From positions 1-11,983 of IMG/VR virus record IMGVR_UViG_2574179916_000005: DNA of 11,983 nucleotides. The stretch is one strand, 5' to 3'. The DNA is from a virus (lineage: Duplodnaviria > Heunggongvirae > Uroviricota > Caudoviricetes). Each line of letters begins with the position of its first letter. The first letter of the stretch is position 1. Position numbers: made by a program. This document shows, in pieces, positions 9,001 to 11,983 of this stretch.

Positions 9001-11983
9001 TCATCCGGCAGACATTACGGTTTATATCGATGGTGTTGCGGCTTCAATGGCTTCGGTGGTCGCAATGGCTGGCGATCGTGTAGTGATGCCGGAGAACGGC
9101 ATGATGATGATCCATAAACCGTGGGGGATCTCTGGCGGAAATGCTGGCGATATGCGTGATTATGCTGATTTGCTGGATAAGGTGGAAACCGTGTTAATCC
9201 CTGCTTATGCCAGAAAAACGGGCAAATCAGCACAGGAAATTACCGCCATGCTGGAGGATGAAACCTGGATGGATGGTAAAGAATGCCTTAAGCACGGTTT
9301 TGCTGATGAATTGTTGCCATCCGTCAGAGCAATGGCGCGAATTGAATCGAAACGCACAGGAGATTTTTTACATATGCCGGAAACCATTAAAGGAATGATT
9401 ACACCGCCACAGGGAGCGGCAAATATTGCTGGTAATGAACAGAAGCGCATCAATGGAATAAGTGAAGTGTTTAGCCTGTTCGGCAGTCGTTACGATGGGA
9501 TCAAAATGGCGTGTCTGGAAGATGCATCATGTACACCGGAAATGGCCCGTGAAAAGCTGTTGAACGAGCTGGGGCGCGAGTCCACGCCATCCAATAAAAA
9601 TACCCCGCCTCATATCTATGCCGGAAACGGAAACATAACAGGTGATGCAATTCGTCAGGGGCTTTACTCCCGTCTTGGGTATGAACGCCCTGAACGAGGC
9701 AACCCTTACGCGATGATGAGCCTTTTTGAAATGGCCCAGGCATCACTAACTGATCGTGGTATCAGTGTTGGCGGTTTTTTAAATCGCTCGCAGGTCGTTA
9801 ATGCAGCTTTCACACACAGCAGCAGCGATTTTTCTCATATTCTGGCTGGTGGCGCTGAAAAATCAGTACTGAAAGGCTGGCAGGACAGCGGCGAAACGTT
9901 CCAGAAATGGACGCGTACCGGTTCGCTTTCAAACTTTCATGAAGCAAAGCGCGTTGGTCTGAATGGTTTTTCAAAGCTGGATAAAGTACCGGAAGGCGCG
10001 GAATATAAATACATCACCACCAGCGATAAAGGTGTACCTATTGCGCTGGCCACGTACGGGAATATTTTTTCCGTTACCCGTCAGGCCATTATCAACGATG
10101 ACCTGACCCAGTTAACTACAATCCCCATGGCGATGGGACGCGCAGCTGCCAGAACAGTTGGCAATCTGGTTTATCTCCTGTTAACCAGCAACGGCAAGTT
10201 TACGGATGGTAAAGCGTTATTCCATGCCGATCATAAAAATCTTATTGCGAAGGATATGGACATGGAGGGGCTTAACGAAGCCCGTAAGCTGATGCGCCTC
10301 CAGGAAGACGCTAACGGCGATTCGCTGAATATTACCCCCGCATTTGTCCTGGTCCCCGCCGCGCTGGAGTCTGCCGCACATCGCGCCATTCTGTCATCGT
10401 CATCACTCTTTCCGGTTGATGGCGTGAGCACTATCAATCAGAACCCCGGCATCATTAACGTGGTGAAAGATATGGCGGAGGTAATCGTTGAGCCACGTCT
10501 TGATAAAGCCAATAACAAGGAGTGGTATGTGGCAGCGGCGAAGGGTATGGACACGATAGAGGTCGCTTATCTTGATGGTATTGATACGCCATATCTTGAG
10601 GAGCAGGAGGGATTTACTGTTGATGGCGTCGCCTGGAAGGTGCGCATAGATGCAGGTGTCGCGGCCCTCGACTATTGCGGATTACTGAAATCGAGTGGAG
10701 CATGACAACAAGGGCGGCGATAGCCGCCTTTTTTTGCGGGTCCTCCCGGTGTAGTGACCTGCCACGGGGCGGGAGCGGCGCGGAAAAAGGCTAGTTTTTG
10801 CATTTTCATTCGTCATCATCATCTTTCTATCATATTGAATTTTAAGTGTTTTTATTTTTGATATGTTAATTTTGCTTATTTTGTGTTCAACATACAGCGC
10901 GTTTTTTGACCTTTTTTAAAAGATATTTGCAAGATGCATGTTTAAAACATTCTGGAGCGGGTATGGATCGGGAACTGAAAAATCTGATGCTGAACATTAA
11001 CCAGCTGGCGGCGATAGCGGGAATATGTCGCCAGACTGCGGCGGCAAGGCTGAAAAATATCCAGCCAGCCGGAGGACATGACAAGCTGAAACTCTATCGG
11101 GTGACTGACATTCTGACCTGTTTTCTTGATCTTCCCGTTCTGGCATCACTGGAAGAAATGGAGCCACACGACCGTAAGGCCTGGTATCAGTCCGAACGTG
11201 AGCGCCTCAAGTTCGAACAGGAAACGGCGCAACTCATACCCGCCGATGATGTGCGAAAAGAGATGGCTATATGGGGAGAAATCGTAAGCGAGGAATTGGA
11301 AAAACTCCCCAGTATTCTGGCACGTGATGTTGGGCTTAAACCGATGGCAGTAAACAGAGTGCAGTCAATTATTGACGATTTGTGTAATCAGATTATCAGC
11401 CGGATGGTAAAAAATGACGTAGTGAATGAGGTCGCAAAACAGGCATGATAATGACCGAATCTGAAATACTGCGATTAATCCGCTGTGCTGGTGGAATCAG
11501 CCAGTTGGCTGACGAACAGGCCGCGCAGCCGGGTAGAGTCACCGCTGAAAATTACGCGCGTGTGGTGGCTGAGGTGATGCGCCGTGACGGTATTGAGCTT
11601 AACGGCGTGGATATGCGCAACATACGAACCAGAGTCCTTGAGTTGCTGGCATACCGTCGCCGTTCTCAACAACGGAGGGAGAGCGCGAAAAATACTTATC
11701 AGTGGAAGAAGCCGGAACGGTTGCGGCGGTAATTTGTTGATATTCCTGATAGCGCAAAAGTGCGTTGGCTGGTGGGTGAGTTGCAGATCTGCAACTCGAC
11801 CATGAAATTACGGAAACTACCAGTAGTTTGGGTAGTAAGAGTAACACCCAGATTTTGGGGCTTACTTGCGATACCCAAATAAAGGGTATCGGTGGAAGAA
11901 ATATCGTTTCTCATATGTGAGTTCCGAGAGTAAGCGACTCGTCAGAACCGTATTGATATTTACTGAGAGCTCAGATCAACTTT

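What the first reader, a model, noticed from the sequence alone, without database searches (positions are those of the whole stretch)
11445..11732. 95-aa ORF translationally coupled to terS-B in the terL position
In lambda the Nu1 stop overlaps the gpA start. Here the second terS is instead coupled (ATGA) to a small basic protein unrelated to GpA. It could be a TerS partner or a packaging-interference factor, or simply a remnant.
Basis: inference. Interest (0 to 1): 0.5.

Follow-up and report, generated by a model that had tools for sequence, protein, structure and literature searches.

The report
Conserved last gene of phage satellites
The 95-codon ORF is a real, conserved gene that closes the packaging operon of many E. 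coli phage satellites (PICIs), including both laboratory model islands; it is not a terminase remnant or a partner of one TerS type, and its function is still unknown.

Summary
An ORF at 11445-11732 overlaps the TGA stop of the second terS (10963-11448) in an ATGA. The conserved start is probably the second ATG (11451, 93 aa). The protein is basic (pI 10.75) and unrelated to GpA.

It is not a remnant. It matches phrog_1561 end to end (E=7e-52) and evolves under purifying selection (median dN/dS 0.22). Homologues occur in 1572 of 5426 complete E. coli genomes.

The window is a helper-embedded PICI inserted in the gpA (terL) gene of a lambdoid prophage. Across 95 loci the homologue follows a Nu1-like TerS (39), a DUF1441 TerS (28), an HK97-type TerL (18), RppA (5) or none of these (5). 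Wherever the island's right end could be read, it is the last gene before attP/attR.

Both model islands carry it: EcCICFT073 (c1505) and EcCIEDL933. Published constructs show that c1505 does not block lambda when over-expressed. An island deleted for c1504-c1507 still transfers at high frequency.

No Pfam, PDB or fold match exists. My best guess is a non-essential, late-expressed nucleic-acid-binding accessory protein: a three-helix core with an Arg/Lys-rich tail. It is an ordinary member of a known but uncharacterised family, of modest interest.

The parts
11445..11732 (+). The reported ORF (95 codons from the ATG that overlaps the terS-B stop). The probable true CDS is 11451-11732 (93 aa). 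It belongs to the phrog_1561 / EcCICFT073 c1505 / EcCIEDL933 WP_000133425 family.
10963..11448 (+). TerS-B, the satellite's small terminase subunit (DUF1441 / phrog_141). It is 67% identical to the prophage TerS-A. Its last 11 residues are not matched by any phage TerS.
10730..10809 (+). cos-like site (lambda-type cosQ/cosN region) upstream of terS-B. The genome record of phage mEp460_4F5 begins at about 10762. A terminator-like hairpin lies just upstream, at 10713-10728.
   Evidence: PMC6092414
11733..11750 (+). Conserved post-stop motif (TAA-yTkGyTGATATT...) that follows the stop codon in most homologous loci.
11751..11766 (+). 6-bp stem with an A-rich tetraloop, 18 nt after the stop. It is conserved with compensatory changes: 85% of cells paired, 5 of 6 pairs changed on both sides, 0 of 500 shuffles as good. 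No U-tract follows.
11773..11802 (.). 15+15 nt palindrome (TGGGTGAGTTGCAGA/TCTGCAACTCGACCA). It is the first of several hairpins in a strongly structured non-coding stretch that leads toward attP/attR.
   Evidence: (I24)
11927..11983 (.). End of an IS66-family insertion sequence (GTAAGCG... terminal repeat). It interrupts the satellite between the ORF and attR. It is not part of the satellite.
1933..3171 (+). Satellite tyrosine integrase, the first gene after attL. The attL core is at about 1757-1771, at the truncation point of the prophage gpA.
282..1771 (+). Helper prophage TerS-A (282-776) and the N-terminal ATPase part of gpA/TerL (776-1771), cut off by the satellite insertion. This is the natural terS-terL coupled pair for comparison.
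8792..10705 (+). Satellite ClpP-protease/major-capsid fusion gene, the start of the late/packaging zone that the ORF closes.

Best explanation
The ORF is the conserved terminal gene of the late/packaging operon of enterobacterial phage-inducible chromosomal islands (PICIs). In this window it belongs to a helper-embedded PICI inserted in the gpA (terL) gene of an mEp460-like lambdoid prophage.

SHOWN:
- It is a real 93-95 aa protein under purifying selection, and a full-length member of phrog_1561.
- The same family is EcCICFT073 c1505 and the gene that follows terL in EcCIEDL933.
- Wherever the island's right end could be read, it is the last gene before attP/attR. It sits tightly behind whatever packaging gene happens to be last: a DUF1441 TerS, a Nu1-like TerS, an HK97-type TerL, or RppA plus a cos site.
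- It lies at a recombination junction between the packaging module and the attP-int module.
- It is not derived from TerL, TerS or Rpp.

FROM PUBLISHED CONSTRUCTS ON HOMOLOGUES: it is dispensable for induction, packaging, transfer and establishment with lambda/phi80. It does not inhibit lambda when over-expressed.

INFERRED (about 35-40% for the general idea, less for any specific target):
- The protein is a small three-helix module with a variable linker and a strongly conserved Arg/Lys-rich C-terminal tail (...YxWKKPERLRR-COOH). It binds nucleic acid.
- It is made together with the packaging proteins late in the satellite cycle.
- It fine-tunes a DNA- or RNA-level step near the cos/attP end of the satellite. 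Candidates are the efficiency of cos use, and the handling of the late transcript at the conserved hairpin that separates the operon from attP-int in the excised circle.
- The benefit would appear only with natural helpers or hosts.
For: Gene reality and family.

Context:
- The window is a satellite inside gpA (HE-PICI concept in PMC10111431).
- It is the last gene in cf-PICIs, in Nu1-type PICIs, in EcCICFT073 after rppA, and in a circular 10.8-kb episomal form directly upstream of attP-int.
- Neighbour census of 95 loci. Exceptions without a terminase gene.
- About 77% of islands with the same SSB backbone carry it: 2020 against 2633 places.

Coupling and co-expression: ATGA or gaps of 15 nt or less in three architectures.

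Linkage: its divergence tracks the packaging module (Mantel r=0.46) more than the integrase (r=0.22; integrases are 21-100% identical). A breakpoint lies inside the gene.

Biochemical inference:
- pI 10.75, tail pI 12.
- AlphaFold2 with an alignment gives pLDDT 76, helices 3-14, 32-45 and 52-80, and a disordered linker.
- Invariant residues Y83, W85, K87, L91 and R92 vary at synonymous sites.
- A conserved covarying hairpin lies 18 nt after the stop.

Dispensability and no interference: the primers of Table S5 of PMC6739421 map c1505 and the c1504-07::cat deletion exactly onto the homolog. Transfer titres of 1e6-1e7 are reported in PMC10460865. Only c1503 blocked lambda (PMC6739421).
Against: - Nucleic-acid binding is inferred from charge and shape alone.
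- The two weak, non-significant hits to HNF1-type homeodomains prove nothing.
- The resemblance of the tail to the lambda N arginine-rich motif is visual only. BLASTP finds nothing.
- The hairpin could simply be an operon-end structure unrelated to the protein.
- The c1504-07 deletion also removes cos2, so a modest effect of c1505 could be masked.
- All experimental data come from homologues (73-78% identical) in other island types with other helpers.
Confidence: 0.5

Rival explanations
1. Terminase accessory or TerS partner. The protein binds TerS-B, or the terminase holoenzyme, and helps or redirects packaging of satellite DNA.
For: - The ORF is translationally coupled or adjacent to the last packaging gene in 90 of 95 loci.
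- Its divergence correlates with the type of upstream packaging gene (Mantel r=0.46).
- TerS-B has a unique C-terminal 11 residues not found in phage TerS. That could hint at an altered partner surface.
Against: - The upstream partners belong to four unrelated families, and 5 loci have none.
- A 98.75%-identical TerS is paired with an ORF only 82% identical, and a recombination breakpoint lies inside the ORF.
- EcCICFT073 lacking c1504-c1507 is still packaged and transferred at 1e6-1e7 per ml (PMC10460865; PMC6739421).
Confidence: 0.15
2. Helper-interference factor. The protein blocks a step of helper phage reproduction, in the manner of Rpp or the SaPI Ppi/Cpm proteins.
For: - It sits in the region where satellites usually keep interference genes.
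- It is expressed late.
- Its basic tail could compete for a nucleic-acid site. This point is inference only.
Against: - pBAD18-c1505 did not reduce lambda plaque formation; only c1503 (RppA) did (PMC6739421; mapping).
- EcCIEDL933 carries a homolog yet does not affect its helpers HK106 and HK446 (10.1101/2022.09.08.507074).
- There is no similarity to Rpp.
Confidence: 0.08
3. Recombination accessory. The protein is a small basic DNA-binding protein that acts at the adjacent attP arm, as an architectural or directionality factor for the integrase. Alternatively it controls transcription that runs from the late operon across attP into int in the excised circle.
For: - It is invariably the gene next to attP, co-oriented with int in the circular form.
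- The 3' half of the gene and the downstream DNA travel together in recombinants.
- A conserved motif and hairpin begin at its stop codon.
- Directionality factors are typically small and basic. This rests on established knowledge of RDFs, not on a test here.
Against: - The associated integrases are only 21-38% identical across islands whose ORFs are 96-98% identical.
- Deletion of c1505 plus about 350 nt downstream still yields stable transductants (PMC10460865).
- AlpA already fills the excisionase/regulator role (PMC6092414, PMC10111431).
- There is no Xis or AlpA-type HTH signature.
Confidence: 0.12
4. Accessory 'moron'-type gene that benefits the satellite or host only in nature. Examples would be counter-defence in new hosts or modulation of a host factor, with no role in the packaging machinery itself.
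For: - It is dispensable in laboratory transfer between K-12 strains (PMC10460865).
- It lies at the island end, where accessory genes sit.
- The region after the cf-PICI packaging operon is described as variable and expected to hold immune systems (10.1101/2025.02.11.637232).
- It is very widespread and conserved.
Against: - Accessory and defence hotspots are variable, whereas this gene is near-core (about 77% of backbone copies).
- It is tightly coupled to the packaging genes.
- There is no significant PADLOC hit (BrxA E=0.008, 14 bits).
Confidence: 0.13
5. Non-functional remnant or mis-called ORF.
For: It is small and has no annotation.
Against: - It matches its family over the full length.
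- dN/dS is 0.22, with synonymous variation across the conserved motif.
- There are thousands of intact copies of constant length.
Confidence: 0.02

Closest known systems
EcCICFT073 c1505 (WP_000133413.1) and the EcCIEDL933 gene after terL (WP_000133425.1); PHROG family phrog_1561 (function unknown)
   Same: They have the same length, 73-78% identity, the same C-terminal YxWKKPERLRR motif, and the same position as last gene of the island before attR.
   Different: In EcCICFT073 the gene follows rppA and an inverted cos site, with a gap of about 280 nt. In EcCIEDL933 it follows an HK97-type terL. Here it follows a DUF1441 terS and overlaps its stop. None of these has an assigned function.
Lambda gpA / TerL (the gene normally coupled to terS)
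   Same: Only the position and the coupling to the terS stop are shared. The window itself shows the natural arrangement at 282-1771.
   Different: There is no sequence or profile similarity, no ATPase or nuclease domain, and it is one seventh the size.
Rpp (RppA/RppC), the PICI protein that redirects helper TerS (PMC6739421)
   Same: Both are small PICI proteins encoded at the end of the island next to a cos site, and both are expressed with the packaging functions.
   Different: The two are unrelated in sequence and coexist in the same island. Rpp is 144-153 aa with a TerS-like DNA-binding domain. The c1505 homolog did not block lambda, whereas Rpp does.
Helper-embedded PICIs (Tommasini, Mageeney and Williams, PMC10111431)
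   Same: [quoted passage not shown] It has the int-alpA / Bro / replication / late zone order.
   Different: That paper does not single out this gene. The exact doubled TGTATTGC motif is not found here. Only a looser doubled TTATYGC-like repeat is visible near att.
Arginine-rich-motif RNA binders of lambdoid phages (lambda N, HK022 Nun)
   Same: The tail YRRRSQQRRESAKNTYQWKK resembles TRRRERRAEKQAQWK of N, including the Trp. This comparison is by eye and from memory. A small hairpin lies next to the gene.
   Different: BLASTP finds no alignment. The motif is C-terminal rather than N-terminal. The hairpin loop is an A-rich tetraloop, not a GNRA-like pentaloop. There is no evidence of Nus or RNAP-binding regions.

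Membership tests
phrog_1561 / EcCICFT073 c1505 family | Full-length match to the family profile | tested here: met
   Residues 3-95 match profile positions 1-93 of 93, E=7.2e-52.
phrog_1561 / EcCICFT073 c1505 family | Conserved core AENYARVVAEVMRRDGIELNG and C-terminal YxWKKPERLRR | tested here: met
   Invariant and near-invariant columns in alignments A1 and A2.
phrog_1561 / EcCICFT073 c1505 family | Last gene of a PICI-type island, before attP/attR | tested here: met
   In the window itself attR is displaced by an IS66 insertion.
Large terminase (lambda gpA type) | GpA ATPase and nuclease domains, or any similarity to the gpA N-terminus | tested here: not met
   No Pfam hit. BLASTP gives no alignment. 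hhalign probability is 0.2%.
Rpp (redirecting phage packaging) | Sequence or profile similarity to RppA/RppC | tested here: not met
   The PDB holds RppC, yet no hit appears. hhalign against RppA gives probability 0.1%.
Rpp (redirecting phage packaging) | Blocks lambda/phi80 reproduction when expressed alone | not testable with these tools
   Literature on the homolog: pBAD18-c1505 gave no inhibition (PMC6739421). The clone identity was verified by primer mapping.
Excisionase / recombination directionality factors (Xis, AlpA/Vis, Cox) | Winged-helix or MerR-like HTH signature (Pfam Phage_AlpA, HTH_17, Xis families) | tested here: not met
   No such Pfam or NCBIfam hit. The model is all-helical with no wing.
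Excisionase / recombination directionality factors (Xis, AlpA/Vis, Cox) | Binds attP arm DNA and changes the direction of recombination | not testable with these tools
   Only adjacency to attP is shown. The c1504-07 deletion still gives transductants (PMC10460865).
N/Nun-type arginine-rich-motif RNA binders | Detectable similarity of the arginine-rich motif | tested here: not met
   BLASTP against lambda N gives no alignment at E of 100 or less. The resemblance is visual only.
N/Nun-type arginine-rich-motif RNA binders | Cognate boxB-like hairpin (5-bp stem, GNRA-like pentaloop) | tested here: inconclusive
   A covarying 6-bp hairpin exists 18 nt after the stop. Its loop is AAAA, AAAT or AAAG rather than GAAAA.
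Helper-embedded PICI (for the element as a whole) | [quoted passage not shown] | tested here: met
   The gpA N-part lies upstream of int. In strain fS58a the gpA C-part lies downstream of the ORF.
Helper-embedded PICI (for the element as a whole) | Doubled TGTATTGC motif flanking the attP core | tested here: not met
   No match with 3 or fewer mismatches near att in L001. Only looser doubled repeats are seen.
Helper-embedded PICI (for the element as a whole) | Integrase inside the HE-PICI clade | not tested
   No phylogeny was built. Only the Pfam architecture Arm-DNA-bind_3 + Phage_int_M + Phage_integrase was established.

The most novel reading that the evidence does not exclude
The family is a near-universal, so far overlooked PICI factor. 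Its Arg-rich, Trp-containing C-terminal tail would bind a structured RNA or DNA element at the end of the late operon: the covarying hairpin just after its stop codon, or a helper nut/cos-type site. By doing so it would control read-through from the packaging operon across attP into int, or packaging efficiency, with natural helpers. That would be an N/Nun-like or IHF-like layer of satellite regulation that laboratory lambda/phi80 assays miss.
Probability: 0.12. Interest if true: 0.6.

Novelty: new member of a known kind. Interest (0 to 1): 0.3.

Why it matters
About 29% of complete E. coli genomes carry this gene, often in several copies. It is also present in both laboratory model islands, the classical PICI EcCICFT073 and the capsid-forming EcCIEDL933. 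Yet it has no name, no domain and no phenotype.

A gene kept under purifying selection at the same position through repeated swaps of capsid, terminase and integrase modules presumably does something for satellites that standard transfer assays do not measure.

It also works as a practical marker. Together with int/alpA it flags the right end of PICI-type islands, and it marks a recombination joint between modules.

For this particular finding the result is mostly clarifying. The ORF is not an unusual TerL replacement but the ordinary last gene of the satellite.

Tried and rejected
- **Homology to known families.** Pfam, NCBIfam and PADLOC gave only sub-threshold noise: Arabinose_bd E=0.025, BrxA E=0.008.
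- **Solved structures by sequence or profile.** Only DARPin/ankyrin hits (E about 0.2) and an HNF1-type homeobox hit (E 0.68), all non-significant. A 2175-aa 'hit' with 11 repeats (P0137) is a eukaryotic SEA-domain repeat protein and is spurious.
- **Relation to nearby packaging proteins.** No relation to gpA, TerS-B or RppA.
- **Lambda N ARM similarity.** Not detected by BLASTP. It is kept only as a speculative lead.
- **Genome-collection scan for distant relatives.** Only 2 loci were returned. The Cedecea hit (37% over 54 aa) lies in an unrelated context and was not pursued.
- **Second profile search of the large protein database.** It listed only close relatives.
- **Rfam.** No family in the window reached significance.
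- **GTTGATATT repeats as a general feature.** Repeats are multiple in EcCICFT073, but the window has a single copy at chance frequency.
- **EcCIEDL933 'hypothetical gene 1792'.** This is the gene whose mutant lowers transfer. I considered whether it is the homolog. Counting from capsid = gene 1786 makes 1792 the 60-aa ORF between HNH and terS, and the homolog 1795. This is an inference, not a verified mapping.
- **Link to cos orientation or DNA-entry order.** Rejected, because cos is direct and upstream of terS here but inverted and immediately upstream of the ORF in EcCICFT073-type islands.
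Full report
**1. The observation**

The window has an ORF at 11445-11732 (+), 95 codons. 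Its ATG overlaps the TGA stop of the preceding gene in the sequence gcATGAtaATGacc.

The preceding gene (10963-11448) is a small terminase subunit of the DUF1441 / phrog_141 type. It is 67% identical to a first copy at 282-776. That first copy is followed, with a one-base overlap, by a gpA-type large terminase ATPase domain that stops after 331 residues. The coordinates, the coupling and the 'terL position' are therefore correct.

The protein is basic: pI 10.75, and 12.0 for the last 25 residues. It has no similarity to the gpA fragment.

One refinement concerns the start. A second ATG at 11451 has an AGG at the right distance. It corresponds to the N-terminus MTE(A/S)E of nearly all homologues and to the 93-aa RefSeq CDS. 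The true start is therefore probably 2 nt after the terS stop rather than overlapping it. Coupling by reinitiation is still plausible.

**2. It is a real gene**

- The ORF matches phrog_1561 (unknown function) from end to end, E=7e-52.
- The large protein database holds 931 clusters of homologues at 90% identity. There are only 35 representatives at 50% identity, most of them fragments. The family is abundant but narrow, essentially Enterobacteriaceae.
- Homologous DNA is present in 1572 of 5426 complete E. coli genomes, with up to 6 copies per genome.
- Over 52 distinct coding sequences the median pairwise dN/dS is 0.22: 0.47, 0.13 and 0.30 for the N-terminal, middle and C-terminal thirds.
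- The invariant C-terminal motif is encoded by several synonymous codons, so the conservation is at the protein level.
- Every source calls it 'hypothetical' or 'prophage protein'.

**3. What the window is**

A 99.6%-identical copy in E. coli fS58a shows the context. It reads: lambdoid prophage lysis genes, TerS, then gpA 'missing C-terminus'. Next come integrase, an AlpA-like regulator, a Bro-N protein, a primase/helicase and SSB. Then follow the ClpP-protease/capsid fusion, the DUF1441 TerS and this ORF. Finally come gpA 'missing N-terminus', portal, capsid and tail genes.

The roughly 10-kb element is thus a satellite inserted inside, and co-oriented with, the terL gene of its presumed helper. 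This is a helper-embedded PICI as described by Tommasini, Mageeney and Williams (10.1101/2022.07.18.500453; PMC10111431).

The closest phage TerS proteins are those of mEp460-like phages. The 80-nt element upstream of terS-B corresponds to the end of an mEp460-type genome record, so it is a cos site. In the window the last 57 bases are the end of an IS66-family element inserted between the ORF and attR.

**4. The ORF is not tied to TerS-B**

Exact-protein look-ups and a scan of viral contigs gave 95 loci with a homolog.

| Gene immediately upstream | Loci |
|---|---|
| Nu1-like TerS | 39 |
| DUF1441 TerS | 28 |
| HK97-type TerL (capsid-forming PICIs) | 18 |
| RppA | 5 |
| None of these | 5 |

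In the last group the gene follows the capsid fusion directly, or follows a c1501-like gene plus an inverted cos.

In three architectures the ORF overlaps or lies within 15 nt of the preceding stop. In the others an inverted cos site fills a gap of about 280 nt. In every locus where the island's right end could be read, the ORF is the last gene, 370-900 nt from attR. In a 10.8-kb circular form deposited as a 'plasmid', it lies directly upstream of attP and int.

Both laboratory model islands carry it. In EcCICFT073 it follows rppA. In the prototype capsid-forming EcCIEDL933 it follows terL. Roughly 77% of islands with the same SSB backbone have it: 2020 against 2633 places.

**5. Module linkage**

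ORF divergence correlates better with the type of upstream packaging gene (Mantel r=0.46, p=0.0005) than with the integrase (r=0.22). Integrases are only 21-38% identical across islands whose ORFs are 96-98% identical.

The ORF is nevertheless not co-inherited with terS. A locus with 98.75%-identical TerS-B has an ORF only 82% identical. Nucleotide identity falls from about 100% to 66-88% inside the ORF, and to below 50% downstream. The gene therefore sits on a recombination joint between the packaging module and the attP-int module.

**6. Experimental information on homologues, from the literature**

The primers in Table S5 of Fillol-Salom et al. 2019 (PMC6739421) map exactly onto the CFT073 sequence.

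- 'c1505' is the homolog. The amplicon covers L013 3317-3690 and the CDS is 3374-3655.
- pBAD18-c1505 was one of the clones tested for inhibition of lambda. Only c1503 (RppA) inhibited.
- The marker island 'EcCICFT073 c1504-07::cat' replaces L013 3104-4001. That removes the inverted cos2, the homolog and about 350 nt downstream.
- This island is nevertheless the standard transferable island of that laboratory, with titres of 1e6-1e7 per ml (PMC10460865).

The homolog is therefore dispensable for induction, packaging, transfer and establishment with lambda/phi80, and it is not a lambda-interference factor on its own.

EcCIEDL933 does not interfere with its helpers either (10.1101/2022.09.08.507074). 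The 'hypothetical gene 1792' whose mutation lowers EcCIEDL933 transfer is most likely the 60-aa ORF between HNH and terS. The capsid gene is 1786 (10.1101/2025.02.11.637232), and counting along the RefSeq gene order puts the homolog at 1795. This mapping is inferred.

**7. What the protein looks like**

AlphaFold2 with a family alignment gives a moderately confident model (pLDDT 76). It has helix 3-14, a disordered variable linker at 15-31, helix 32-45, a six-residue turn and a long helix 52-80. The tail ...TYQWKKPERLRR follows. Invariant residues include G47, D54, I58, R59, L66, Y83, W85, K87, L91 and R92.

Nothing significant was found in any of these searches:
- Pfam, NCBIfam and PADLOC;
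- PDB sequences;

Two independent but non-significant hits point to HNF1-type homeodomains, which are three helices with a long loop and a basic recognition helix. I treat this as no more than compatible with a DNA-binding three-helix module.

By eye the tail resembles the arginine-rich motif of lambda N, but BLASTP does not support this.

**8. The flanking DNA**

In most loci the stop codon is followed directly by a conserved motif (yTkGyTGATATT). Then comes a 6-bp stem with an A-rich tetraloop whose sequence differs between islands while pairing is kept. 85% of cells are paired, 5 of 6 pairs show changes on both sides, and 0 of 500 shuffles reach this. No U-tract follows.

The next 130 nt form a run of hairpins, with z = -3.7 on the + strand and -5.2 on the - strand. 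No Rfam family matches.

**9. Interpretation**

*Shown:*
- The ORF is the conserved terminal cistron of the late/packaging operon of enterobacterial PICIs.
- It is not a TerL remnant.
- It is not specific to TerS-B.
- It is unrelated to Rpp.

*From published constructs on homologues:* it is not essential for transfer and not a lambda inhibitor.

*Inferred:* it is a small nucleic-acid-binding protein, made with the packaging proteins, that modulates a DNA- or RNA-level step near the cos/attP end of the satellite. Candidates are cos usage, or the fate of the late transcript at the hairpin that separates the operon from attP-int in the excised circle. The benefit would be visible only with natural helpers or hosts.

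I give about 35-40% to that general idea. The rivals are a terminase accessory or TerS partner (about 15%), a natural-setting accessory or counter-defence gene (about 13%), an attP/recombination accessory (about 12%), helper interference (about 8%) and a remnant (about 2%).

**10. Verdict**

What looked like an unusual replacement of terL is the ordinary last gene of this class of satellites, and the family is already present, uncharacterised, in the model islands. The interest lies only in the fact that such a widespread, well-conserved satellite gene still has no function.

Noticed in passing
window 1-1771 and 1933-11926 (compare L001 2961-16420): The whole element is a PICI-type satellite inserted inside the gpA (terL) gene of a lambdoid prophage. 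The prophage TerS and the first 331 codons of gpA lie upstream of the satellite integrase. In strain fS58a the rest of gpA resumes about 370 nt after the ORF. The attL/attR identity block is about (T)TCyTGGATG.
   Followed up: yes
window 59-138, 8194-8273, 10730-10809: There are three copies of an 80-nt lambda-type cos (cosQ/cosN) element, one in the prophage and two in the satellite (78-93% identical). The mEp460_4F5 genome record starts at about 10762. Two cos sites per island are already known for EcCICFT073.
   Followed up: partly
window 11927-11983: An IS66-family terminal inverted repeat (GTAAGCG...) begins here. The last ~64 nt (about 11920-11983) match IS66/ISCro1 ends, which account for most of the >1400 plasmid records hit. 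The near-identical island in fS58a lacks the insertion. The window's island is therefore interrupted between its last gene and attR.
   Followed up: partly
window 11751-11766 and 11770-11900: A covarying hairpin lies right after the ORF, followed by a run of four more hairpins, including a 15+15 nt palindrome with a GATC centre. The stretch is much more structured than shuffles on both strands. There is no Rfam match. It could be an operon-end structure, protein-binding sites of the attP arm, or a small RNA.
   Followed up: partly
window 11416-11448 (TerS-B residues 151-161): The last 11 residues of the satellite TerS (KNDVVNEVAKQA) replace the acidic tail of the prophage TerS (EPGADDEEELQQEE). 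All listed top phage TerS hits (58 records matched in total) align only to residue 148-156. In lambda the TerS C-terminus contacts TerL, so how TerS-B engages the helper gpA is open.
   Followed up: partly
window 7288-7500: There are three iteron-like repeats AAAAAGTGGG(G/T)A(G/A)(T/C)AAAA, spaced 85 and 83 nt apart, just downstream of the AAA_25 helicase/primase gene. They are probably the satellite replication origin.
   Followed up: no
L097 (NZ_CP148328.1, 1-10790): A 10.8-kb record deposited as a non-mobilizable E. coli plasmid is a circular PICI. It carries int, alpA, primase, the ClpP/capsid fusion, a 'tail assembly protein', the DUF1441 TerS and the ORF homolog. The attP lies between the homolog and int. 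It is apparently an excised or episomal satellite.
   Followed up: partly
window 11500-11750 versus L041: A recombination breakpoint lies inside the ORF. Identity to another island is about 100% from cos through terS-B into the first 50-100 nt of the ORF, 66-88% in its 3' half, and below 50% downstream. The gene acts as a homologous linker for module exchange between satellites.
   Followed up: yes
L096 (Klebsiella phage P12620-1, PQ569648.1, 7643-10733): In this 106-kb 'phage' record, an unannotated short relative of the ORF (residues 40-95, 48% identical) follows an HK97-type terL and precedes another P4-type integrase. It looks like a satellite region inside a sparsely annotated record.
   Followed up: partly
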